Source of the DNA: Bolinopsis microptera
Lineage: Eukaryota
Assembly: GCF_026151205.1 (NCBI RefSeq)
Contig: NC_087073.1
Span: 10,138,636-10,202,635 of the forward strand
Reading direction: 5' to 3'
DNA length: 64,000 nucleotides
The position numbers and the translations under genes were made by a program. Under the pieces are notes generated by a model that ran no database searches, was not told the origin of the DNA, and was given only the letters and a program-made list of their open reading frames with translations. Positions 2,813 through 64,000 of this stretch are shown here, piece after piece (position 1 is the stretch's first letter; every line of letters starts with the position of its first letter).

Positions 2813-10559
<7,747 letters not shown>

Positions 10560-40050: not shown

Positions 40051-40416
40051 GCATTTGCAAATACATATATGCGGTGAAAGGTTTACAAATAAAAACAGCC
40101 ATTAAATTTAAGATTCGTTTGTGACACATTGTTAAATACAAAGAAATATTATGTAGCAATTCGAATTTTGTTACGTTATCAATATCATGAAAAATAAAAG
40201 CAGCGCGCATCAAACCCAAGCTTTGAAGGGAATGCAAATAACATAGCATAAAAATTGCAACTTATTTTCGAAATTCACATACTGTTCGATAACCTCTATT
40301 CCATATTCTGGTCTTATCAATTGTTTCAAAAACATTCAAGTTCAGTTTGGATCGGAGTCACGTTCTTGAGAACAGTGGGTTATAACGTTTGGGGATTCCA
40401 TAGATTTGTTTACGCT

Positions 40417-43400
40417 TCATCGTCGGAATTGATTGTTAGGATTGTTCAGGAAAGGAGGTGCGCCAGCGTTAAATGGCGGTGGAGCCCATTGAAGAGGTGG
40501 TCCGTTTGGTTGGGTAAAGTTTATAGCAGCCGGAACGTTCCCAAATTGCTGGGCGGGGCCAGGAGGAGGTTGACTGAATGGCATCGGTGGCGGCTGCATC
40601 ATCGGGTTGGTTTTGTAAGTTTGAACCTGTTGAACCTGTTGCTGAACTTTCTGGTAAGTGTTAGGGCCCGGAGCTTGTGGAGGCTGTGGAACATTCCCAT
40701 AAGTGCTTGGTTTTGTGTTGACCATCTCCTTAACACCTTGCAACGATTTCAATAGATCGTTTATTTGGTTAGATTGCTGTCCAGTACTCGGCCTTGCCTC
40801 GCTCCTAGCACTACTATAGGTGTCAGATCTAGAAGGTCGGGATGAAGAAGAAGAAGAAGATGAGGGGTTATAGTTGGAGCTTGTGTGACCATCCCGGGAG
40901 GAACTATGGCTGGAGGAACTGTGTCCGTGAGAAGAACTGTGACCAGGGTTGTGAGAGGAAGTGTGAGCAGATCCGTGACTAGTTCCATGCGAGGAGCTGC
41001 CATATGATGAGCCGTGTGATGAGCTCATGTGGGAAGGGCCTCCATGGGAAGAGCTGGGGTGACTCGAGCTGGGGTGACTCGAGCTGGGGTGACTCGAGCT
41101 GGGGTGACTCGAGCTGGGGTGGCTGGAGCTGGGGTGGCTGGAGCTGGGGTGGCTCGAGCTACCGTGAGTTGAGCGAGGCCTATCATGAGAGGATCGAGAG
41201 TAGGAGTCTCGAGATGAGCTGCGTTGAGAGGTATACTCCTGTACAGGAGCTGTGGGAGGCTGTTTGTGGGACACCATCAGAGGATTGAAAGAAGGCAGGC
41301 TAGGAGCTGAAGAATATTTCGGGAAAGTCTGTAATTGTGGTGGCGCTAACGAAGGGGGAGCTGGTCTCGGTTGATTTGTTATCAAATTCGTTATTTGTCC
41401 ATTAGCTTTCATCTTCTCGAGATTTTCCTTTATCTTCGCTGCGTTGGAAGCATTTTGTGCTTCAATGAGAGCCGCCTTGTTGGTAGCTTTGGAAGACATT
41501 GTTTTCACAGTGTTTTGAAGTTGCTTCACAAGAGCTGATTTCAGATCAGCTGCAAGTTTTTCAGTGAGCGATTCTCCAAGCATACCTCCCAAATTCTGAA
41601 CATTTCCTTGCATAAGAGCCTTGATAGCGGCTTCTTGTTTCGCAGTTTGCTCTCTCAACATCTTCAGCTCCATTTCTTTTCCAGGGGAGCCTGCTGTAAC
41701 CTTCCGTTCAGTAGATCGTGACTTAGGTCTCCTCCTTTCCCTGGAATGTGACCTCCGTGCTCGTTTAGGAGATCTTGAGTTTCTCCTTCGATCTGGTCTC
41801 CTCGGAGATCGTCTGGGAGAACGTCTGTTTCCTAGAGAATGGCGAGAAGGTGGTGACCTGCGAGGAGAGGGACGTTTGTGAAGAGGTGAACGTTTGGGAG
41901 GACTGGGTCGTTTAGGCGAGCGGGGCTTAGGAGAGGTCCTTCTGACGGTCCGTTCAGTGATCGGTTTAACTGGAGATTTGGACTTCCGCCTTGGGGACCG
42001 GCTCTTACGTCGGGTGGTAGGACTACTTCGTCTTCGAGGAGATCTAGATTTTCTTCTTGGAGACCTGGATTTTCTTCGGGGTGATCGAGTACGTCTCCTA
42101 GGTCGTTCAGGTCGGTCAGGTCTTCTTGCAGGGCTTGTTCTTACAGAAGTTGATGGTCCCCCTGTTGAGGGTCCTGGTCCTTTCCTGGTAGCGGAACGTG
42201 AGCGAGTTCGTCTTCTGCGATCTGAAGACCTTCTCTTTAAATCGTCAGACTTAATATTTACAGATATCGTCCCCGAACCGGATACGACTCTCCTGTCCCT
42301 GTCACCAGCCCTTTCTTTGTCTGAAAATTGGAGTTTTCAATGGATAAATAGCCATTACACCACTCAATCTTGTTAACGAGTAGAATTTGATAAGGGCAGC
42401 AGCTCTGATATTTTCATTCTTGGTGATTATTGTGGATAGAAGTCATATTTTAATCTAATTTTAATCCCTTTAATAATTGGGAATAATTTACCTGATCTAG
42501 GTTTGCTTTTGTCCTCGGGTGAAGTGTGACGGGGTCTGATGCCAGCTGGTCGACTGCTAGGTTTCAGTTGCTGCTGTCTCATCTTACGCAACACTGCGTT
42601 ATCTTTCTTGGGCTGGTGGAATATCAAAGTAAGTTGCATGTCTAAGATAAGATGAGAAAAAAATCTTACTGAGACTCAGCATATCTCATATGAACGTAAT
42701 TCAATGTTCATGCTTGATTTTGTGAGAAAAACAGTTAAACTTATTTTTCATAAAATCTATCGACGAATAAATATCTCTACTATAATTCAGAGAATTATTT
42801 CTGTAGGATGTATGTACGACCGCCCACGTGCAAATTCGGTAAAAAGCAAAAGGTTGCAAAGTAACCATGGTAACGACCAAAAAGGGTTGTTACACGCACG
42901 TGCACGTGCAAAGATTGTTAGAACGGCATTTTTATCGGTTTTGTTGATATTACGCTGTGTTTAGTGCGAGCAACATTTTAATCGGCTGTATCTTCGGTTG
43001 TGTAGGATATTTTTGATTAAACTTACTAACAAAAAATACTATTAGCCCAGACTATATCAATGGACGGGAGGATTAAAGTACTTTCATACACACCAGCATG
43101 CTCATTGATGGCTTAAAATGAAGCTAAGACATACTCCTATCAGATCCACCATAAGTTAGATACCATAATAATCATTAAATGTGTCTAAAATGAGGAAGCT
43201 TTGACAAGTGCGAGTGGTTTTGGCAAATTTTGGTATAAAATGGGCCCTGAGATCATATTTTTCTCATTAAAATCACATATATCACGAATATTTATGTGTG
43301 TTGGGTGTATCCTCATTGGTATCAACCATTTCAATCATCTAGAGCAGCTTTCCTGATTCTTTATCTCATGAAAATGGGCAAAAAAGCTCATAAATAGTCC

Positions 43401-46400
43401 AAAATCGGTCATTTTCGCCGCTTTAATAACCTCATTCCTGGCACCCAGAACACTTTGGGTACTCAAAACATGATTTTTCGGATACCTCAGACCCCTAACT
43501 AGCACATGGAGCCAGAAAGAACAGCATGTAGGGACTTCTAAATTTTCATGGTTGAGAACCCAATGTCACACTATTCGTTCATTAATCCTGCTTTCACTGT
43601 TCCCTGTGACCACGGGTTTTCTAGTACATTATAAAGTAACACATTTAAGTTGTGACTCACTCTTGACGTTACAATCTCTTTGTTATGGAGCTTATAACCA
43701 TTCAGTTTCTGAATCGCTACCCCGGCTTCACTCTCTTGGGACATCGTGACGAGACCGAAACATTTAGCTTCTTTAGCGTTGGGATTCATCACAACTTTCG
43801 CACTCATCACCTGCAAAGTACGCCGATCAAAAAGAAGCTCACAAGACGTCAATATCTAATAATACCAGACAAAACAATATCACTAAATAATTTTACTGAT
43901 ATGTAACACCATTGGTCATATAATTATAACAAGCAAATAATTTATCATGAATGGTAAATTATGCGGACAGAAGCAACAATTTACCTTTCCGTAGAGTCCG
44001 AAACAGGTTTTGAGATCAAGAGCACGAGTTTGTTTAGTAAGGTTGCTGACCCATATCATCTTCATAATATCCGGATGTCTGAAATGAAACAATTTGAACA
44101 AAAGGGCAGGGAATTGTTATTTTTAAACTAGCCATCCGCAAAGAGCATACAGCTTTTATTTCTAAATGATATTTACAGTCAATCATTGCGGACGGCTACA
44201 ATGATATATCCGTAAGAAGTTCTTAAAATGTTTTCTCAAATAAAAATCACGGTAACAAGATGAATGATTAACAGTGCATTCGCGATTAAAACTACAGACT
44301 ACTTTATTAATAAACAGCTCAAGTAATAGTCGAGTAAATTGCTGCTCATTAAACGAAATTTTGACTTTCACCCAAACCAATTAGTAGAACTGCATCAGAG
44401 TTAGTTGAGCGTATCCGGGGCAAAAACCAACTGCAGCCAAGATATAGAGCGATCGATCAAATTTTAACACAAATCAAAATTACCCTTCTTCCTCCTTTTC
44501 GTCAGAAGGCTTATCCTCCTTTTTTGTAGCATCCCCTGGAGCTTCCTCGGCTTTAGCTTCTGCCGGCACAGACTCCTCAGCTGTCTCCTTGGTACCAGTT
44601 TCCACGATGGCAATCTCAGACTCCTCTATCTGGAATGAGATCATCTCCTCCTTGTTGTCGTCACCATCTCCGTAGTCCAGCTCGTCACCACCAGCCTTCG
44701 TCGTTCAGAAGAGAGCTATCCGGTTCTGTGGTGCCATCTTTACTGGCTTCTTTAGTATCAACATCAAAATTTTGATTGTCCTGTACAGCAGCAGGATCAA
44801 CGTCAGAGACTAAGGAGCCTTCAGCTGAGGGAGCTTCAGTCACCACCACTGCTGCATCCACAGCTTCAGTGACGGTTTCAGTCTGTTCAGCCTTTGGATC
44901 TTCAGATTTTAAGTCGGTCGTGACACTGTCAACTTTTTCTGGAGCATCCTCAGCTGAAGTCTCCTCAGCTACTGGATCTGACTCGGTAGCTCCACTCTGA
45001 CCAGGTTCGTCTACCATTTCTTCCTTAGGAGGTTCCTCCGATTCTTGGGCTTCCTCTTGTTCGATAGATTTAGTTTCTGAGAAATAGAAGCTTCAACATT
45101 TAATTCAAGAACTTAATCTTGAACACCAAATACGTTACCTGTTCCGTTTTACCGGCAAGTTGAATTACGTCAGTCAAAATAGGTTCGTTCGTGTCGTCTC
45201 ACTCTATCTAGTTGATATATCCATCTACGCTTGAAGTAGGAAGCAACCAAATAGTCCAAGTGCAAGTTGCCCAACTCGTAGTCCAGCAACATTTTTGACA
45301 TTATACACACTTTGTAGTGGTTTGTCATAAACCCGGCGGCCGGCAACATACGGTGAGATGTCATTTACAATTGGTAAACAAATAGACGTTCTCCAGATAT
45401 ATAATTTAGGGAGTTACAACGAATACATTTTCCTTATTAAATCAGTTTAAAGTTTTGTTAACTTTCATCAAGTCTACAATTTCTTATGACTATAACAAAT
45501 AGGCGATTATTCTGTGGCTAAATCCCCCAAATTACCGATATTTCAAAACAGTAAAAGGAGGGACCACCTCATTGGAGAAAAAAAAGTATACAAAACCGTC
45601 AATAGAATGTTTAATTGGACAGCCAACATTTTAATAGTTTGAACAAAGCTCAGATGTTCAAAAACAGGGTATAGTCGAACGGCTTAGTTGATTGTCACTT
45701 TTGCGAACGGTAAACCAATAACTGTATTGAACAACAGACATCGTAAATCAAGAGCTACCAGAATTGATTATTTTCATTGCATATATATGAACAAACAGGG
45801 GAATTACGATGAATGTAGACCGGAAACAACAGAGTTACCTAAGGTATTAGCTTGAAAGCAACACGAGGTTCTCTTAATGTTAAGCCATCATAACACACAG
45901 TACATACCCGGTTGTTAACAGTTATTTAGTTCTCTATTCTATCAACAAGGCAAGGTGGCCATTGTAAACAGATAAAGCCCATTTCAGACAAATAAAGGGA
46001 CTTCTCAATAATCAAAAAAATTAAAAAGGAAACAAAACGACGCGAATTTCTCCAAATAGTGGAAGTTAGAATAACATACCTTGTGTATCGTCGTCCTCAG
46101 GATCGTCCAGATCTCCAATAACGGTATCCACAATGTTTTCCAGGCCTTCTATGTTCTCCTCCCACTCATCAAGACCATCATCAACAGTGGTTTCTACCTC
46201 TTCAGTCTGGCTGGTGGTTTCCTCATCTTGTATCGCCTGAACATTAGAAGTTGAACATCAAAGAGTTGTTTATATAATGGTGCGACTATTTTACACAATA
46301 ATAAACAGTCTTGTAAAATCAAATATTAATTTTATTCGATTGAGCGTCTCTGCTTCATCAGAAGGAAATCCAGACTTAGGCAAGGACAACTTTTTAAAAG

Positions 46401-55789: not shown

Positions 55790-57520
55790 GGTTCTTTTGC
55801 GATAGTCAAAACGCGACAACTAGCGCTGGATGGCGACAACTAGCGCTATCCAGCGCTAGTTGTCGCCATCCAGCGCTAGTTGTCGCTATCCAGCGCTGGA
55901 TAACGCTGGCCAGCGCAAAATATATATCTTCGATAATTGTCGCTATCCAGCGCTAGTTGTCGCCATCCAGCGCTAGTTGTCGCCATCCAGCGCTAGTTGT
56001 CGCTATCCAGCGCTAGTTGTCGCTGGCTATGCGACACTGTCGCACGCGATAGTTTGCGATGGCCAGCGCAACTGGCCATCGCAGAAAACAGTTCGATAAC
56101 TAGCGCTGGCCAGCGCTGGATAGCGACAACTAGCACTGGATGGCGACAACTAGCGCTGGCCAGCGCTAGTTGTCGCTATCCAGCGCTAGCCAGCGCTGGC
56201 CAGCGCTATCCAGCGCTAACCAGCGCAAAATATCAATTTTTGATAAATTTTCGATAAATGTTCGATAAATGTCGCGACAAATAGCGCTGGATAGCGACAA
56301 CTAGCGCTGGCCAGCGCTAAGCGATAGCCAGCGCTGGCCATTGATATCCAGCGCAAAATTTTTGCGCTATTACTCGTCAGCTAGCGCTAGCCAGCGCTAA
56401 CCAGCGCTAGCCAGCGCTAGCTGACGAGTAATATCGCAACTATATTGCGCTGGCCAGCGCTGGCTGACAAGTAATACTAATATCGAGCGTGCTAAATCAC
56501 TCTACAGTAGTTCTTCGAGATTGTTCTAAAAGGGCCCCCGATGGTTGTAACCAACTTCAATCGATGTATTTTCGGACGCTAATTCCGAATCAAACCCCAT
56601 GGGCCCATGACATATAATAGTGTTAAAATGCTCTCCTGACGAGATATTGGCGAAAAACTGTACATGTATCGATCACGTGATATGACCGTATAAGGAAGTT
56701 AGTCTAATTTCTCGTTATTGTTAGGGTTTCAGCATATGTTTTTGTTAAGGATTGGGTTAGGGTTAGGGTTAGGGTTGGGATCAGATTAGAGGGTCAGGGT
56801 TTCGAAAAGTCGTTCAGAACCAGCTAGAGTCAGAGAATGGGTTAAAAAAGTCACGTGACAGTCGAGTGTAAAGTGATTAATCATCATCCGAGTAATATCG
56901 CAAGTATATGATTTTGATACATTGCGCTGGCTAGCGCTGGCTAGCGCTGGCTAGCGCTGGATAGCGAAAACTAGCGCTGGCCAGCGCTGGCTAGCGCTGG
57001 ATAGCGACAACTAGCGCTGGCCAGCGCTGGCTAGCGCTGGATAGCGACAACTAGCGCTGGCTAGCGCTGGCCAGCGCTAGCTGACGAGTAATAGCGCAAA
57101 CATTTTGCGCTGGATATCGATGGCCAGCGCTGGCCAGCGCTGGCTATCGCTTAGCGCTGGCCAGCGCTAGTTGTCGCTATCCAGCGCTAGTTGTCGCTAT
57201 CCAGCGCTAGTTATCGAACTGTTTTCTGCGATGGCCAGTTGCGCTGGCCATCGCAAACTATCGCGTGCGACAGTGTCGCATAGCCAGCGACAACTAGCGC
57301 TGGATAGCGACAACTAGCGCTGGATGGCGACAACTAGCGCTGGATGGCGACAACTAGCGCTGGATAGCGACAATTATCGAAGATATATATTTTGCGCTGG
57401 CCAGCGTTATCCAGCGCTGGATAGAGACAACTAGCGCTGGATGGCGACAACTAGCGCTGGATAGCGCTAGTTGTCGCCATCCAGCGCTAGTTGTCGCGTT
57501 TTGACTATCGCAAAAGAACC
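55790..57520 (+). mobile_element. 1731-bp foldback-type non-autonomous DNA transposon with ~650-bp inverted arms built from 20-bp tandem subrepeats, flanked by 8-bp target-site duplication CTACTACC; inserted in the LINE ORF2
   Basis: Termini GGTTCTTTTGCGATAGTCAAAACGCGACAACTAGCGCTGG ... CCAGCGCTAGTTGTCGCGTTTTGACTATCGCAAAAGAACC are perfect reverse complements. The flanks ctactacc (55782-55789) and ctactacc (57521-57528) are direct repeats. The arms are arrays of ccagcgctagttgtcgc[ct]at on the left and its complement on the right. Removing the element and one duplication copy joins LINE ORFs 57505-59814 and 55580-55819 in frame (...SGGSR|SGESCNLY...). Confidence 0.75.
56753..56778 (+). repeat. 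Telomere-like motif (TTAGGG) x3.5 in the unique centre of the foldback element
   Basis: gggttagggttagggttagggttggg. A further ttagggtttc lies at 56721. Confidence 0.6.
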
Positions 57521-59814
57521 CTACTACCTCCTGATATGTAACTAAATTTGTTCATAAAGTTTGTAGGACAATTGTCATGGATGATTCTAAACATATAATT
57601 TGACAGATGGAGTTGTCGTCTAAGATGGAGTGGTAACCATTTCATGTCTCTATAAACATTAAGGCTGCTCTCTGTTTGTGGAACGTTGAGAGCTATTTTG
57701 GCTACCTTTTTGTACAGAGTGTCAAGTTCAGCAAGTTTTGTCTTGCCAGCTCTACAATAGATCGTGTCTAAATAATCGAATTGTGGCAACATAAGTGCAT
57801 TGGCAAACATTTTCCTATATTTAATGGGTAGCAGTGCTTTACTTCTATACATGGCACCAATTCTCTTCATGACCTTCTTAATAATATAATCTACATGGCT
57901 TTTGAAGTTTAATTTACTATCTAGAATGAGGCCAAGATATTTTGTCTCTTTGCACTCCTTGATTGTGAAAGTTACCTCATTACATTCAATGGTTAATTCA
58001 TCATGTTGATCAACAGAATCAAACAATAGGAATTCAGTCTTCTTTTCATTGAGTGATAATTTATTTACACTGAGCCATTTAAAGATTGTCATAAGTTCTA
58101 TTTTCATGTTTATAAATGTGCTTCTGCAGGTTTGATCAAAGAATAGTGCACCATCATCTGCAAATAGAAAGGGCTTAGATAGGTTACAGGCATAAATGAT
58201 GTCATTTATGAAGATACTAAATAATATAGGCCCAATGATGCTTCCTTGTGGTACACCACTCAGAACTTCTAAAAATGAACTTATTTTGCCATTGATCCTA
58301 GTGCATTGATATCTACAAGATAAGAAGTTCTTAAACCAGGTTAAAGCAATGCCACCAATTCCATAATATGCCAATTTTTGAAGCAATATTTCATGATTCA
58401 CTGTGTCAAAGGCCTTCTTAAGATCAAGAAAGATGATTCCTGGTTTATAAGACTTAGATTTACTCATATATATTTCGTCCATCAGATCGTACATCAAATA
58501 AGTTGTGGAGTGATTTTTCCGAAAGCCATATTGATGCCGGATGAAAAGTTTGTTCTCTTCCATGTAATCAGTGAGTTGCTTGCCGACAAAGTATTCTATA
58601 AGTTTTCCTACAAGTGGAAGGATGGATATTGGCCTGTAATTATTAGGATCATCTTTCATTCCTGCCTTATGGATGGGAGTAACTCTAGCTTTTTTACAAA
58701 GGGTTGGTACAACACCTGTATTAAGGCTCAAATTGACAATATGGGTCAGTGGCTCAACTATGTGTGGTACAGCTTGCTTAAGTAAAAATAGAGGCACATC
58801 GTCATATGAGGCCTTGTCATTCTTGAGCGTTTCGACATACATTAGGATATCAGTTTCATTTATTTCTTGGAATCTATCAAATGAGATGTTAGAAGTTCTA
58901 GGAGGTAACAAATCAGTAAAACTAACTCTTTCAATATTGGGGGCCTGATTTTGTAATCTTGATCCAACATTTGCAAAATGAAAGTTAAATAGCTCAGGAT
59001 CATTCTCATTGATAGTTTGACAATTAGTTGTACCAGGGGTCATATTTGATGCCAGTTTGATAGTTTTCCATACCCCTTTAAGATCATTCTTGGCACTTTT
59101 AACTTGTAGATCATCGATTACATTAGCCTTTTTGCAGGTTTTAGCTAATTTATTTCTAATATTTCTCTGAATCTTGTAGCAATCCCAGGCCTCATTACAC
59201 TTTATACATTTGCTACATATACCACATTTATTGCAATTTCCATTGTCTCTCTTATCCTTCTTTTTACGGAATTTCTTTAGAAGAAAATGTGTATGATTAA
59301 TGGCATTTAAAAGTTCAGTAGAAGGTTTATGTATGAACTTTTCATGCCTTTCTATGGTCTTGCAAGGGAAGAAGGTTGCATATGCCTGTTCAATATGATG
59401 ACAAAGGCCAGCAGTGATAGCTTCAACATCTGTACTTTCCAATAGTGGACTGTAATCAGAACAGGTATCTAGATAGTCTAAGAATTGTTTAACATTACGT
59501 TTACAATGATTTCCAGGGGTCGACCGAGGGCAGGATTTTCGACCGAGGCCGAGGCCGAGGAAAATACAGTTAGTTAAGACCGAGGCCGAGGACAACCGAG
59601 GTTTCTTTTTTTGACCGAGGCCGAGGCCGAGGCCGAGGAGTGCAAATTTTGACCGAGGCCGAGGCCGAGGCCGAGGAATTTTGGCAGAAAAATTGTTGGG
59701 AAAAAGGGCATTGTTTATTAGGAAAAGCGCACTGTACCTAATCAGATTGTACTGTGTACTATACTGTGTACTGGTACACACGTTACAATCATTATGAAGG
59801 GGCAAGTTCGCCAA
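57505..59814 (-). CDS. LINE ORF2 fragment (reverse transcriptase domain), 769-aa open frame
   Basis: Palm and fingers motifs are present: PISILPLVGKLIEYFV, GFRKNHST, FLDLKKAFDTVNHEILLQKL, LSGVPQGSIIGPILFSIFINDI, FADDGALFF. The C-terminal tail has HVDYIIKKVMKRIGAMYR...LYKKVAKIALNV, as in CR1/L2-type elements. Confidence 0.8.
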   Translation of the reverse strand: MANLPLHNDCNVCTSTQYSTQYNLIRYSALFLINNALFPNNFSAKIPRPRPRPRSKFALLGLGLGLGQKKKPRLSSASVLTNCIFLGLGLGRKSCPRSTPGNHCKRNVKQFLDYLDTCSDYSPLLESTDVEAITAGLCHHIEQAYATFFPCKTIERHEKFIHKPSTELLNAINHTHFLLKKFRKKKDKRDNGNCNKCGICSKCIKCNEAWDCYKIQRNIRNKLAKTCKKANVIDDLQVKSAKNDLKGVWKTIKLASNMTPGTTNCQTINENDPELFNFHFANVGSRLQNQAPNIERVSFTDLLPPRTSNISFDRFQEINETDILMYVETLKNDKASYDDVPLFLLKQAVPHIVEPLTHIVNLSLNTGVVPTLCKKARVTPIHKAGMKDDPNNYRPISILPLVGKLIEYFVGKQLTDYMEENKLFIRHQYGFRKNHSTTYLMYDLMDEIYMSKSKSYKPGIIFLDLKKAFDTVNHEILLQKLAYYGIGGIALTWFKNFLSCRYQCTRINGKISSFLEVLSGVPQGSIIGPILFSIFINDIIYACNLSKPFLFADDGALFFDQTCRSTFINMKIELMTIFKWLSVNKLSLNEKKTEFLLFDSVDQHDELTIECNEVTFTIKECKETKYLGLILDSKLNFKSHVDYIIKKVMKRIGAMYRSKALLPIKYRKMFANALMLPQFDYLDTIYCRAGKTKLAELDTLYKKVAKIALNVPQTESSLNVYRDMKWLPLHLRRQLHLSNYMFRIIHDNCPTNFMNKFSYISGGSRVLLR
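59521..59690 (+). repeat. (CCGAGG)n / GACCGAGG-rich microsatellite cluster
   Basis: gaccgaggccgaggccgagg blocks with short spacers. Read on the minus strand this gives the PRPRPRS / GLGLGLG segment of the LINE ORF N-terminus, which is artefactual. Confidence 0.7.
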
Positions 59815-60177
59815 GAGTCAGGAGTGGGCATGCCCAGGCAGGATCTGAGTAATTGACAGTGAAATTTGAAATATTCTATCAGAAGCGTGCACGTGGTGAG
59901 ATGGATGGTGTCGGTGCATCAGGTACAACCAAACACTCGGGCTCCGGCAGCCATCTTGTAATCAGTTCATAATTTGTTGTTTTGTCTTCGTAGCTGTTAG
60001 TGTTGCGTCAGTAATTAATTATTGCTATTTGCCCATTTTCTTTATCCCTACAATTACATTTAAGTTTCCTTTTCTAGCAAGTTGTTCAGATTGCAGTGTC
60101 TTAACACATACTGAGTTTAGACTTCAGTGAATCTGGAGAATATTGCACTAGTTACATTTAACATACGTTTACGGGGC

Positions 60178-60420
60178 CCCCTTTCTTGTGTAAAAGTGAC
60201 CGTCACTTTTGATGACACATCTGGCCCTTTTGGGTCACTTTTTTTTAACAACGTCGACTTTTGGTCACTTTTTTTCACGTTGAGGCCGCTTTTTGGTCGT
60301 TTCTGGTCGCCTTTTAAATTTTGGTCGCTTCTGGTCGCTTCTAGTCGCTTCTGGTCGCTTTTTGGTCGCTTCTGGTCACCTTTTAGGGTTTATGTGACAT
60401 GTCGCTTTTACACAAGAAAG
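60178..60420 (+). repeat. Small IR-bounded element (22-bp imperfect inverted termini) enclosing a (TGGTCGCTTC)n decamer array
   Basis: ccctttcttgtgtaaaagtgac ... gtcgcttttacacaagaaagggg has one mismatch. The interior is tggtcgcttctggtcgcttctagtcgcttctggtcgctttttggtcgcttctggtcacc. It may be a MITE or the subterminal repeats of the adjacent hAT element. Confidence 0.4.
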
Positions 60421-60546
60421 GGGTCAAAATATCCAGGGTGCGTTTTGTTTAGACTTGTTAGAAGAATTTTGATGACTAATTGTGCCATCTGGTATCAAAA
60501 TTCACGATAATTAACAAATTCACGTGCCTTAGGCTAAGAAGCTAGG

Positions 60547-63500
60547 ATGTCTCAATCAAAGAGAAGTGTTTCCGGCGTATGGCAATTCTTCTCAGTACCA
60601 GATCCCGGAGCGAATCCACATTTGGCAGAATGCAAGGAGTGCTCTGCTTCGATCAGACGAGGAAAACCAGGTCAATCGGCCAAGGACTACCAGGTTTATA
60701 ATTTTATGTTTTTTAGTAAGTTACTTAAGTACTTAGAGGTATTGCTGGACTAGCGCGACTAATGTGCAGTTTCAACTTTTATTACTAATCTCTCAATTGA
60801 TCGTGTAATTAAGCTGTAATTGATTATGGAACCTAACATAAAATGTATAAACAATGAGTACAACTATAAAAGTAACGATTAACGAATCAATTTTAAGCTC
60901 GAGTTTGAATTTAACTTATCCAGGTAACGAGTTTGTGGGATCATCTAAAACATAAGCATCCCTTAAAACACAAGGAAGCAACTGCCATACGTGATCAACA
61001 GAAGGCAAAAAGACAGAAGTCTCAAGAAGCCGAGGCTGAGCGGAGATCCATGTATCAACTAACAGCAGCTAATCAGCCCACGATTGGACAAGTCTTGAGC
61101 GGCGCTACATTTACGAAAATGACGGCGGAACGTCAGAAAGATCTAGAGAAGTTGCTCTTAAAATGGATGACAGATCAGATGCTTCCCTACACGACTGTTG
61201 AGAATGAGCATTTTCAACATTTTGTTCACGGTTAGAATCATTTTAAACTTTAAATGAAGTTTATTTACTAAACAGTTCTATTCTAGGTTCGAGCTGTGAT
61301 GACTCCAAATTAAAATTCCAATATGTTCGTGATGATACTTTATAAAAGTGACTGCTGTTCAGTATACTAGTGGCAGATTGTTAATAACTCGTAATCATGG
61401 TCATTTGCGAATTGGTTCAGATAATCTGATATCCGACTCATTCAGGTTTGAACAAGAAGTTTTCAATTCCATCAGAAAAGGTGATACGCACAAAACTGTT
61501 TCCAGACTTGTATAACAGAGTACAGTTTAAACTAAAGAGTTTCATCGATGACAACCTGAAAGGAGCTGACTACAGTCTTACCTGTGATGTTTGGTCGTCA
61601 AAAGCTTTGGATTCCTATCTCGGAGTCATTATACACTTTGTAACAAACGATTTCCAAAGAAAAGTAGTTGTTCTACGTTGCCTTCCATATAACCGCGCAC
61701 ATAGCGGTAAGTTCTAGCATTGAATCTAGAAAATTCATTTTATATCTAATCTGTATCAAAGCTAGCTTCGTGAATCGTGATCAAACTCAGCAATGTCTGC
61801 CATTTCTGGCCAATGCTCAGCAGAGCACGCTCATGTTTTATATAGTAGAAAATGTTGACCGTTACTGTTAGCTGGCTGCCTACTGCCCGCAGGGTGTCTA
61901 TTTTCTAACGACTAACATGACAAATTACTTCACGCAGGTGACTCAATCAAGACTAATGTGTCATTTGTTCTGCGCTCGTGGGGTTTGTCGGAAGATAAGC
62001 TGCATTGCGTCATTAGCGACACCGCATTGAACATGAAGAAAGGACTGTCGGCCTGGACTTGGATAGGATGTTTTCTTCACATCCTGAATTTGATTGTGAA
62101 GAATTCAATATTTACACAAAGCGGAGTGCAAAGATTGATCAAGAAGATCAAAAACTTGATCAAGGAGTTCAGAACCCCTACCGGTGAGAGTCAACACATT
62201 TACATAAATTACATTCTTATTATTCAAAATTTTCATTAAAATGTGGCACTGAATTTAAATCATTTTAGCGACTTGCATTTATTATTTTTTAACTATGATA
62301 TATCAAACTATAGACTATACCCGAATGCAGGGAAGCGTCTACTTAACGAGAACCAGATAAAAGATTCAACGCTACTACGACCTGTGGACACGAGGTGGAA
62401 TAGTTATTATATGATGTTTGACGTGTTCCAGAGCAAAAAGGCAGCTATCACCGTAACAGCTCAAAATACGGACTTATCGTTGTCTGCATCACAACAGGTT
62501 AGTTGATAATAGCTCTTTAGACTCATGTCTCAGTCAGCACCATTTCACTCAGAACCATCTCACTCAGAACCAGTCAGAACCAGTCAACAAGTTTAAAAAT
62601 TAATCCTCAGTATACTGCAGTTTGAGTATTGATGATTAAAACTTTTCAGATGACTCCTCACGATTGGGACCTTCTTACCAAGGTTATAGTCCTATTGAAG
62701 CCATTCTTCATCACAACTAAAGCTGCTGAGGGGGACCGAGTTTCTGTTTCGGAGGTCATTCCAAACATTAAAAAACTGGATTACGAGATCAGAAGTATGT
62801 CACTGAGTGGATTAGGAACTCTAAAAGCTACGCTGCTCTCTGAGATGGAACGGTATAGTTTAAAATTTGTTATTTGTATGAACTATGACTTGCCTTACCG
62901 ACTATTATTGAAACTTATTACTCTCTGAATTTTTAGCAAAACGTACGTAAATTTGAACCTAATGATTAGGGCCAAAGACAACATGCTTCCAAATTTTAAA
63001 TTGAATTAGGGCCGAATGTCTAATTAGCACCTCAGCAACTGTTTGACTTCTTCACCAACATGTAATTTTTCCCTCAGGTACTTCGTAACCAAGTACGATG
63101 TAGAGAAGAAGCCCCAATACTCAATAGCGACTCTTTTAGACCCACGCTTTAAAGCAGCAGCCTTCTCCACGAAAGTCAATGCCGCACTAGCTAAGCAGAT
63201 ACTGATTGACGAGATTTGTACCAGGATTCAGTCTTCACCACCGCAAGTTCCGGTAACTGATGTTTCTGATGACCCTTCAATAGTACAGTCTTCTGGCTCA
63301 ACATGGGCAGCAATCCTGGATAGTACCTCACAGTCTGAAGAAGACGACGAATTCGAAGAAAATAGTGAGAAGATAAGGAGGGAAGCTAACAGATACTTAA
63401 AAGACTCACGAGTTGATTTATCATTTGAACCATTAGTTTACTGGAAAGCTAATAAGCAGAGATATCCGAACCTTGCTGAGTGTTCAAGGAAATATCTATC

Positions 63501-63771
63501 TGCGCCGGCGAGTTCAGCAGCACCAGAAAGATTGTTTTCTACAGCAGGGCACATCCTGAAGTTAAATCGCCTCAGCCTTAAGCCAACAAACTTTGAGGGG
63601 TGCTTGTTTCTCAAAAAGAACATCGGAACATTTGGGGACAACTTCGGCCCCTGTCCAGATGAATTCGAAGCCCCAAATAAAGATGACTGTCCCCCTTCTG
63701 AGCTGTGCACAGACGATTATTCTGATTCAGAGTGCTCAGATATTGTAATTTCATCAGACGATGAATCTTAG
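60547..63771 (+). CDS. hAT-superfamily transposase with N-terminal BED zinc finger and C-terminal hAT dimerisation domain; 7 coding exons, 674 aa, apparently intact. Exons 60547-60693, 60924-61230, 61446-61706, 61938-62183, 62331-62497, 62650-62852, 63078-63771
   Basis: Exon 1 MSQSKRSVSGVWQFFSVPDPGANPHLAECKECSASIRRGKPGQSAKDYQ is a BED finger (C-x2-C...H-x-H continues in exon 2 as VTSLWDHLKHKHP). Middle exons hold hAT core motifs (YSLTCDVWSSKALDSYLGVIIHFV, CFLHILNLIV, VDTRWNSYYMMFDVF). The last exon has LLDPRFK and PLVYWKANKQRYPNLAECSRKYLSAPASSAAPERLFSTAGHILKLNRLSLKPTNFEGCLFLKKN. All six introns are GT-AG with phases 0,1,1,1,0,2 and the total is 2025 nt. The listed ORFs 60933, 61448, 61958, 62243, 62629 and 63043 are the exon frames. 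Confidence 0.75.
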
Positions 63772-63880
63772 ACTATGATATTTTTAGTTTTGTGTCCTGG
63801 TCAATTGGTCGTTTTATTTTCAATTTTACAAATTCGTTTACATTAACCTCTGTAAGTCTAGAAAAATTCCCAAAATTTCA

Positions 63881-64000
63881 ACAAAAATCCTCGGTCAAAT
63901 CCTCGGTAAAATCGTCAAATTTCGCAGAGGCCGAGGAATTTCGAATCTATTTTTGACCGAGGCCGAGGCGAACCGAGGAATTGTCCTCCTGACCGAGGCC
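63881..64000 (+). repeat. Second GACCGAGG-type repeat cluster; starts with inverted copies (cctcggtc) then direct copies
   Basis: cctcggtcaaatcctcggtaaaatcg...tttttgaccgaggccgaggcgaaccgaggaattgtcctcctgaccgaggcc. It runs to the window end. Confidence 0.6.

What the first reader, a model, noticed from the sequence alone, without database searches (positions are those of the whole stretch)
60547..63771. Apparently intact, intron-containing hAT (BED-finger) transposase gene: active transposon or domesticated host gene
Seven exons with canonical GT-AG junctions and consistent phases join into one 674-aa frame. It carries every hAT landmark: BED finger, the W-x-S DDE-region motifs, LDPRFK, and the PLxWW/ERLFS dimerisation domain. 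It sits beside dead transposable elements, yet shows no frameshifts or stops. I could not find convincing short TIRs or an 8-bp duplication around it. That is compatible with a domesticated ZBED-like gene, but an autonomous element with unrecognised ends is equally possible. A foldback element with an 8-bp duplication, the hAT hallmark, lies 3 kb away and could be mobilised by such an enzyme.
Basis: partly seen in the sequence, partly recalled or inferred. Interest (0 to 1): 0.7.

Follow-up and report, generated by a model that had tools for sequence, protein, structure and literature searches.

The report
Intact hAT transposon in a ctenophore
This is an ordinary but apparently complete cut-and-paste hAT DNA transposon in the comb jelly Bolinopsis microptera, still carrying its own end sequences, and not a host gene derived from one; its only unusual trait is six introns that its relatives lack.

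Summary
Seven exons (60547-63771, +) join through six GT-AG introns into a 674-aa frame with no stops. Every junction aligns without gaps to intronless homologues. The protein is a hAT transposase: hAT dimerisation domain, a BED finger, all residues invariant among 36 homologues, and a predicted fold matching only Hermes transposase.

Two copies of a related element in another genome have 18-bp inverted ends (CAGTGGTCGACCGGGATC) and 8-bp duplications. The window has the matching end, CAGGGGTCGACCGAGG, once, at 59514. It sits at the outer edge of an array of 15 CCGAGG motifs, 1 kb upstream of the ATG. A matching array begins 113 bp after the stop and runs off the window end, so the 3' end lies just outside.

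The window is from Bolinopsis microptera. No protein above about 52% identity exists in a collection that holds this species' RefSeq proteins and ORF calls from a sibling species. The sibling's collinear contig diverges at about 54650.

Verdict: a full-length, probably autonomous Ac-like hAT transposon of at least 4.5 kb. It is a new member of a known kind. Domestication is unlikely. Current activity, copy number and transcription are untested. The nearby foldback element has unrelated ends.

The parts
59506..59513 (.). Candidate left copy of the 8-bp target-site duplication (ATGATTTC). The right copy would lie beyond the window.
   Evidence: These are the 8 bases immediately outside the 5' TIR. 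This is an inference, because the partner copy cannot be seen.
59514..59534 (+). 5' terminal inverted repeat, CAGGGGTCGACCGAGGGCAGG.
   Evidence: It matches the verified TIRs of relatives L001 and L004 (CAGTGGTCGACCGGGATC / CAGAGCTCGACCGGGATC). The pattern CAGNGNTCGACCG occurs once in the window on either strand. About 0.18 matches are expected by chance when one mismatch is allowed.
59522..59680 (+). 5' subterminal repeat array with 15 CCGAGG motifs, 5 of them as GACCGAGG. It is the presumed transposase (BED finger) binding region.
   Evidence: Motif map. Only 2 further CCGAGG occur elsewhere in the 64 kb outside the two arrays. L001, L004 and L005 have the same architecture.
59681..60546 (+). 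5' non-coding part of the element (promoter / 5' UTR; not resolved).
   Evidence: It lies between the array and the conserved start codon. In relative L005 the array lies about 880 bp upstream of the ATG.
60176..60424 (.). Short inverted-repeat (MITE-like) element nested in the 5' non-coding region. Arms are CCCCTTTCTTGTGTAAAAG(T/C)GAC, with internal TGGTCGCTTC tandem repeats.
   Evidence: No clear duplication flanks it.
60547..60693 (+). Exon 1 (start codon and first half of the BED finger, C29 and C32).
60924..61230 (+). Exon 2 (second half of the BED finger, H56 and H61, plus a long helix).
61446..61706 (+). Exon 3 (first catalytic aspartate, D199).
61938..62183 (+). Exon 4 (second catalytic aspartate D266, and the C283-x2-H286 motif).
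62331..62497 (+). Exon 5 (T341-R-W343-N-S motif).
62650..62852 (+). Exon 6 (helical insertion domain).
63078..63771 (+). Exon 7 (LDPRFK, hAT dimerisation domain with catalytic E594, acidic tail, TAG stop).
63884..64000 (+). 3' subterminal repeat array (5 CCGAGG forward and 2 reverse), cut off by the window end. The 3' TIR is expected shortly beyond 64000.
   Evidence: In L001 and L004 the equivalent array begins at AAAAATCCCGGC and ends about 115 bp later in the 3' TIR.
57529..59513 (-). LINE ORF2 fragment (reverse transcriptase) that abuts the hAT 5' TIR. The frame is open right up to the junction.
   Evidence: Pfam RVT_1 E=1.5e-35. ORF reconstruction.

Best explanation
The gene is the transposase gene of a full-length, structurally intact Ac-like hAT DNA transposon in the ctenophore Bolinopsis microptera. 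The element starts at 59514 and ends just beyond the window, so it is at least 4.5 kb.

Shown:
- A 674-aa transposase is encoded by seven exons.
- It has a BED zinc finger, a Hermes-like catalytic core with the D199/D266/E594 triad, the C-x2-H and RW motifs, and a hAT dimerisation domain.
- A 5' terminal inverted repeat is homologous to that of related elements. Those elements demonstrably transposed: two copies at different sites, each with an 8-bp duplication.
- Arrays of CCGAGG motifs lie just inside both ends.

Inferred from what is established for Hermes and Ac:
- The spliced mRNA yields a transposase that oligomerises through its C-terminal domain.
- Its BED fingers bind the subterminal CCGAGG arrays, and the core recognises the CAGGGG termini.
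- It cuts the element out through hairpins on the flanking DNA and reinserts it with an 8-bp duplication.

The element most probably inserted into a young LINE copy, whose open reading frame runs up to the junction. Whether this particular copy is still mobile is not known.
For: - Gene model and junctions.
- Family assignment: Pfam PF05699 at E=7e-20. Hermes chains hit at E~1e-17, with the DDE, CxxH and RW residues aligned. All 15 invariant and 28 near-invariant columns of a 36-sequence alignment are kept. The AlphaFold model has pLDDT 85.5, and its only significant PDB matches are 12 Hermes chains (E down to 6e-18, TM 0.62-0.76).
- Ends in relatives: L001 and L004 have TIRs CAGTGGTCGACCGGGATC / CAGAGCTCGACCGGGATC. 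Their 8-bp duplications are ATTGCAGA/ATTGCGGA (splitting the YxDD motif of a retrotransposon RT) and ATGCTAAG/ATGCTAAG. The two copies are 97% identical.
- Ends in the window: CAGGGGTCGACCGAGG is unique at 59514, in the right orientation, at the outer edge of the motif array. CCGAGG occurs 15 times at 59524-59676 and 5 times (plus 2 reversed) at 63889-63998, against 2 elsewhere. Relative L005 has the same array followed by ATTTTTC..., about 880 bp before its ATG.
- Not a conserved host gene: the best hit in 5.8 billion proteins is about 48-52% identical. The neighbouring HECT gene, by contrast, has 100%, 98%, 90%, 80% and 63% counterparts there. The sibling-species contig L012 is collinear with 40081-54644 and then unrelated for 6.9 kb.
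- Youth of the setting: the LINE frame is open for 730 aa from the hAT junction once the foldback insertion is removed.
Against: - The 3' TIR and the second copy of the duplication are outside the window, so the element is not closed.
- Copy number in the genome could not be measured.
- No RefSeq protein corresponds to this gene, and no transcript-derived protein was found. Transcription and splicing are therefore unconfirmed.
- A MITE-like sequence sits between the 5' array and the ATG and might disturb expression.
- Six introns where all examined relatives have none is unusual for an animal hAT element. It could point to long residence as a gene.
- The sibling comparison reaches only 6.9 kb past the synteny break.
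Confidence: 0.75

Rival explanations
1. It is a domesticated (ZBED-like) host gene. On this reading a former hAT transposase is kept for a cellular function such as DNA binding, is expressed from a host promoter, and the end sequences are leftovers.
For: - The intact frame has six spliceosomal introns of host-like size. Five examined relatives are single-exon over the aligned part.
- Database names of distant homologues are 'ZBED1/ZBED4-like'.
- No second copy or fragment lies in the 64-kb window.
Against: - The 5' TIR and 22 motif copies in the two subterminal arrays are well preserved.
- All catalytic residues are retained.
- No orthologue above about 52% identity exists anywhere, including in a sibling species whose neighbouring gene is 98% identical.
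- The gene is absent within 6.9 kb of the synteny break in that sibling.
- The gene lies in a cluster of nested mobile elements.
Confidence: 0.1
2. It is a hAT transposon copy that looks intact but is no longer mobile or expressed. It may be silenced, disabled by the nested MITE-like insertion, or missing its 3' end. Its open frame would then simply reflect recent arrival.
For: - No annotated protein or transcript-derived protein matches it.
- A MITE-like sequence lies at 60176-60424 in the 5' non-coding region.
- The 3' end is unseen.
Against: - There are no stops or frameshifts in 2025 nt, and all invariant residues are kept.
- The splice sites are all canonical.
- Both subterminal arrays are present.
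Confidence: 0.15

Closest known systems
Hermes transposase / Hermes element (Musca domestica), the structurally solved hAT
   Same: - The fold is shared: Foldseek E=6e-18, TM up to 0.76.
- The DDE triad, the CxxH and RW motifs, the C-terminal dimerisation region with the catalytic Glu, and the N-terminal BED finger are shared.
- The element end starts with CAG, and there are subterminal short repeats.
   Different: - Identity is only about 18%.
- Hermes is intronless, while this gene has six introns.
- The subterminal motif here is CCGAGG. From memory, that of Hermes is different.
Intronless hAT elements found here in ENA sample ERZ25073829 (L001, L004) and Logan contigs (P0001, P0002)
   Same: - They are the closest relatives, at roughly 41-53% protein identity depending on the alignment.
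- The TIR core is shared: CAGNGNTCGACCG.
- Arrays of a G+C-rich hexamer lie inside both ends.
- 8-bp duplications are present.
   Different: - They have no introns.
- The hexamer is CCGGGA or CCGGGG instead of CCGAGG.
- L001 and L004 are internally deleted copies without the BED finger.
- Their host organisms are unknown.
Ac (maize) and Tol2 (medaka): autonomous hAT elements with introns
   Same: They are autonomous hAT elements whose transposase gene is interrupted by spliceosomal introns. They have CAG-type termini, subterminal transposase-binding repeats and 8-bp duplications. This comparison is from established knowledge and was not tested here.
   Different: From memory, they have fewer introns (4 in Ac, 3 in Tol2). 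Their sequences are distant.
ZBED1/ZBED4/ZBED6: vertebrate genes domesticated from hAT transposases
   Same: They share the BED finger plus hAT core plus dimerisation domain architecture. Distant homologues of this protein are named after them in databases.
   Different: From established knowledge, the vertebrate ZBED genes lack transposon ends and are syntenic orthologues across species. Here the ends are present and no orthologue was found.

Membership tests
hAT superfamily transposon | Transposase with an RNase-H-like DDE core interrupted by a helical insertion domain | tested here: met
   D199, D266 and E594 are aligned to the Hermes catalytic positions and invariant in 36 homologues. The predicted fold matches only Hermes chains.
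hAT superfamily transposon | C-terminal hAT dimerisation domain (PF05699) | tested here: met
   E=7e-20, 71 bits against a 21.4-bit cut-off, at residues 546-626.
hAT superfamily transposon | N-terminal BED zinc finger | tested here: met
   C29, C32, H56 and H61 are near-invariant in the alignment. The model is confident there, with a strand-strand-helix arrangement. The Pfam score is below the cut-off (18.3 against 20.6 bits).
hAT superfamily transposon | Short terminal inverted repeats at both ends (typically starting CAG or TAG) | tested here: inconclusive
   The 5' end, CAGGGGTCGACCGAGG at 59514, is homologous to both TIRs of relatives. The 3' end is outside the window, so the inverted pair itself is not seen.
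hAT superfamily transposon | 8-bp target-site duplication | not testable with these tools
   Only the left flank (ATGATTTC) is in the window. The feature is met in relatives L001 (7/8) and L004 (8/8).
hAT superfamily transposon | Several copies at different genomic sites | not testable with these tools
   The B. microptera genome could not be searched. There is no second copy in the window. A metagenome scan for the TIR gave only chance bacterial hits.
Domesticated ZBED-type gene | Loss of transposon ends | tested here: not met
   The 5' TIR and both subterminal arrays are present.
Domesticated ZBED-type gene | Conserved, syntenic orthologues in related species | tested here: not met
   No protein above about 52% identity was found, although the sibling species' ORFs are in the collection. 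Sibling contig L012 has no counterpart within 6.9 kb of the synteny break. The reach of this test is limited.
Domesticated ZBED-type gene | Purifying selection measured against orthologues | not testable with these tools
   There are no orthologues. The closest homologues are about 50% identical, so synonymous sites are saturated.

The most novel reading that the evidence does not exclude
All six introns may have been gained inside a still-mobile DNA transposon lineage. Every relative examined is single-exon over the aligned part: two genomic copies, two short contigs, a mollusc copy and an insect copy. The homologous positions in them often read AG|G. This would be a burst of intron gain in a transposase gene, or a transposon caught early on its way to becoming a host gene.
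Probability: 0.15. Interest if true: 0.5.

Novelty: new member of a known kind. Interest (0 to 1): 0.25.

Why it matters
On its own this is routine repeat annotation: one more hAT family, here in a ctenophore. It has three modest uses.

1. It gives defined ends (CAGGGGTCGACCGAGG plus CCGAGG arrays) and an apparently intact transposase for a B. microptera element. Together these are the two ingredients of a possible endogenous gene-transfer vector in a phylum with few genetic tools.
2. It shows how TIRs missed by eye can be recovered from distant relatives that sit in interrupted genes.
3. The intron-rich gene among intronless relatives is a small, testable case for how introns arise or are lost in mobile elements.

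Tried and rejected
- An inverted-repeat search between the upstream region and the 229 bp after the stop found only the short TGACCGAGG motif and no terminal pair. The 3' end is simply not in the window.
- A generic TIR+TSD scan around the L001 gene gave only noise. The ends were found instead by reading the interrupted reverse-transcriptase frame.
- Looking up the window's HECT protein found no gene on record, so sequence beyond 64000 could not be fetched.
- The metagenome scan for the 16-nt TIR returned 120 loci. All were chance matches, mostly in high-GC bacterial contigs. The two low-GC hits lacked the motif array.
- The introns are not copies of a repeat. No part of 60547-63771 matches elsewhere in the window. 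The short direct repeats at the junctions are no more than the AG|GT consensus.
- No other copy of the LINE was available to decide between 5' truncation and interruption by the hAT.
- The literature search found no description of this element.
- The foldback element was considered as a non-autonomous partner and rejected, because its ends are unrelated.

Full report
**Observation.** I rebuilt the model from the sequence. The exons are 60547-60693, 60924-61230, 61446-61706, 61938-62183, 62331-62497, 62650-62852 and 63078-63771. They join into 2025 nt, which is 674 codons plus TAG. All six introns are GT...AG, with phases 0,1,1,1,0,2. Introns are 147-231 bp and poorer in G+C (26-40%) than the exons (43%). 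The introns carry in-frame stops, so the protein needs splicing.

The strongest support for the model is homology. The spliced protein aligns without a gap at all six junctions to the intronless homologues P0001 and P0002. It does the same at junctions 2-6 to P0003.

**What the protein is.**
- Pfam gives Dimer_Tnp_hAT at E=7e-20. zf-BED scores 18.3 bits, just under its cut-off.
- Sequence search of solved structures finds the Hermes transposase at E~1e-17. The catalytic positions are aligned: CDVW/D199, ISD/D266, PERLF/E594, C283-x2-H286 and R342-W343.
- In a 36-sequence alignment of hAT/ZBED-like proteins the window protein keeps every invariant column (D199, D266, C283, T341-S345, D465, P466, W566, E594, F597, R608). 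It also keeps the near-invariant BED ligands C29, C32, H56 and H61.
- An AlphaFold model (pLDDT 85.5, pTM 0.75) matches only Hermes chains in the PDB. There are 12 hits at E<=0.001, the best 6e-18, with TM 0.62-0.76 on the target.

The enzyme therefore looks catalytically competent.

**Finding the ends.** The closest homologues are roughly 41-53% identical, depending on the alignment, and I fetched their DNA.

- In L001 (ENA ERZ25073829, a 1-Mb contig) the homologous ORF is fused to a retrotransposon reverse-transcriptase frame. That frame stops at ...GVIAIAD and resumes at IADDMLIH. The hAT element has therefore split the YxDD motif.
- This fixes the L001 termini as CAGTGGTCGACCGGGATC on the left and CAGAGCTCGACCGGGATC on the right (reverse complement). 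They are flanked by ATTGCAGA / ATTGCGGA.
- A second copy in the same sample (L004) is 97% identical over 2.4 kb. It has the same termini at another site, with a perfect duplication ATGCTAAG.

The family is thus a bona fide mobile hAT with 18-bp TIRs and 8-bp duplications. Just inside both ends these elements carry arrays of CCGGGA motifs.

**The same architecture in the window.**
- CAGGGGTCGACCGAGG starts at 59514, on the + strand only.
- The pattern CAGNGNTCGACCG occurs once in the window on either strand. About 0.18 matches are expected by chance when one mismatch is allowed.
- It is followed by 15 CCGAGG motifs within 59524-59676.
- A second array, with 5 forward and 2 reversed copies, starts at 63889, after AAAAATCCTCGG. 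This parallels AAAAATCCCGGC in L001. It runs to the last base of the window.
- Only two other CCGAGG occur elsewhere in the 64 kb outside the two arrays.
- Relative L005 begins with a GGCCGGGG array followed by ATTTTTCTGAAAAATT, about 880 bp before its ATG. In the window the array ends in AATTTTGGCAGAAAAATT, 867 bp before the ATG.
- In L001 and L004 the 3' array spans about 115 bp up to the TIR. The window is cut about 115 bp into its 3' array.

The 3' TIR should therefore lie shortly beyond 64000. The element is at least 4.5 kb, and the candidate duplication is ATGATTTC (59506-59513).

**Setting.** The 980-aa single-exon HECT ORF at 48457-51399 (-) is exactly XP_063673803.1 of Bolinopsis microptera. 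The window is therefore from that ctenophore.

Left of the hAT end lies a LINE ORF2 fragment on the minus strand, with RVT_1 at E=1.5e-35. Its frame is open right up to the TIR.

The foldback element at 55790-57520 has 326-nt arms that are 99% complementary. It has a perfect 8-bp duplication, CTACTACC, and it sits inside the same LINE. Removing it and one duplication copy restores a 730-aa open frame from the hAT junction to a natural stop near 55580.

The LINE is thus young, and at least one DNA element has landed in it since. The hAT most probably landed in it as well, but 5' truncation of the LINE at that exact point cannot be excluded within the window.

**Transposon or domesticated gene.** The protein collection holds RefSeq proteins of this species. 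It also holds ORF calls, down to 33 aa, from a sibling species (ERZ25073835). In that sibling the HECT protein is 98% identical and the DNA about 90% identical. The HECT gene has counterparts at 100, 98, 90, 80 and 63% identity. The hAT protein has nothing above about 52%.

The sibling contig L012 is collinear with window 40081-54644. It then has 6.9 kb with no nucleotide or translated similarity to 54645-64000.

Preserved ends, retained catalytic residues, no orthologue and a nest of mobile elements all point to a lineage-specific transposon. I put domestication at about 0.1.

**What remains open.**
- The 3' end, the copy number, transcription and present-day mobility are all untested.
- The absence of any RefSeq model or transcript-derived protein means there is no positive evidence of expression.
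- A MITE-like inverted repeat (60176-60424) lies in the 5' non-coding region.

**Mechanism (inferred).** This follows what is established for Hermes and Ac.
1. The spliced mRNA gives a transposase that oligomerises through the C-terminal domain.
2. Its BED fingers bind the subterminal CCGAGG repeats, and the core engages the CAGGGG termini.
3. The DDE site nicks the DNA and forms hairpins on the flanking DNA.
4. The excised element integrates with an 8-bp staggered cut.

Only the sequence features are shown here. None of the biochemical steps was tested.

**The foldback element.** Its termini (GGTTCTTTTGCG...) and AGCGCTGG-type internal repeats are unrelated to this element's ends. Cross-mobilisation is therefore not supported. 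From general knowledge, an 8-bp duplication also occurs in other superfamilies.

**The one unusual feature.** All relatives examined are intronless over the aligned part. These are L001/L004 (genomic), L002, L005, a Patella copy (L133) and a Choristoneura copy (L134). The positions homologous to the window's introns often read AG|G in them. The introns do not match each other or anything else in the window. Intron gain in this lineage is the parsimonious reading, but the sample is small. From memory, intron-bearing autonomous hATs such as Ac and Tol2 are well known.

**Comparison and verdict.** This is a new member of a known kind: an Ac-like hAT element. The literature searched does not describe it. 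Interest is low to moderate.

Noticed in passing
window 55790-57520 (duplications at 55782-55789 and 57521-57528); LINE pieces at 55580-55789 and 57529-59513 (-): The foldback element (326-nt arms 99% complementary, internal 10/20-bp AGCGCTGG-type tandem repeats) is inserted inside the LINE ORF2. Removing it and one CTACTACC copy restores a 730-aa open frame ending in a typical LINE C-terminus. Part of its interior (56481-56869) has a 78% match at another place in the sibling species (L012 21118-21475).
   Followed up: partly
window 48457-51399 (-): A single-exon 980-aa HECT ubiquitin-ligase ORF is identical to XP_063673803.1 (ubiquitin-protein ligase E3C-like) of Bolinopsis microptera, which identifies the source organism. 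Relatives at 98, 90, 80 and 63% identity occur in ENA assemblies, JGI sample 3300018948 and Logan assemblies.
   Followed up: yes
window ~54650: Collinearity with two contigs of a sibling species (L007, L012; about 90% nucleotide identity over 40081-54644) ends here. Everything from 54650 to 64000 (foldback, LINE, hAT) has no counterpart in the sibling's next 6.9 kb.
   Followed up: partly
window 51675-53025: Two tandem copies of a two-exon segment (51675-51872/51975-52198 and 52421-52620/52808-53025) match the ribosomal L7Ae-family ORFs of related contigs. This looks like a local gene duplication, and the matching pattern in the sibling (L007, L012) suggests it has the same pair.
   Followed up: no
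window 60176-60424: A MITE-like element has 23-nt inverted ends (CCCCTTTCTTGTGTAAAAGTGAC) and internal TGGTCGCTTC tandem repeats. It is nested in the hAT 5' non-coding region, with no clear target duplication and no other copy in the window.
   Followed up: partly
L001 10186-12622 and L004 4009-6425: Two 97%-identical copies of a 2.4-kb internally deleted hAT lack the BED-finger region. One is inserted in the YxDD motif of an LTR-retrotransposon reverse transcriptase. A prokaryote-style gene caller fused the RT and transposase frames into one 'protein' (P0003).
   Followed up: yes
window 62528-62572 (intron 5): A 15-bp tandem repeat (TCTCACTCAGAACCA, 3 copies) lies inside intron 5 of the transposase gene.
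   Followed up: no
window 6664-7281 (+) and 40417-41673 (-): An ORF has a Ras-family segment (E=1e-8). A separate 418-aa ORF with no significant Pfam match lies in a stretch that aligns to the sibling (about 89% nucleotide identity over window 40081-42774, where the sibling contigs carry a 393-aa ORF). These are probably host genes and show that the region is gene-bearing.
   Followed up: no
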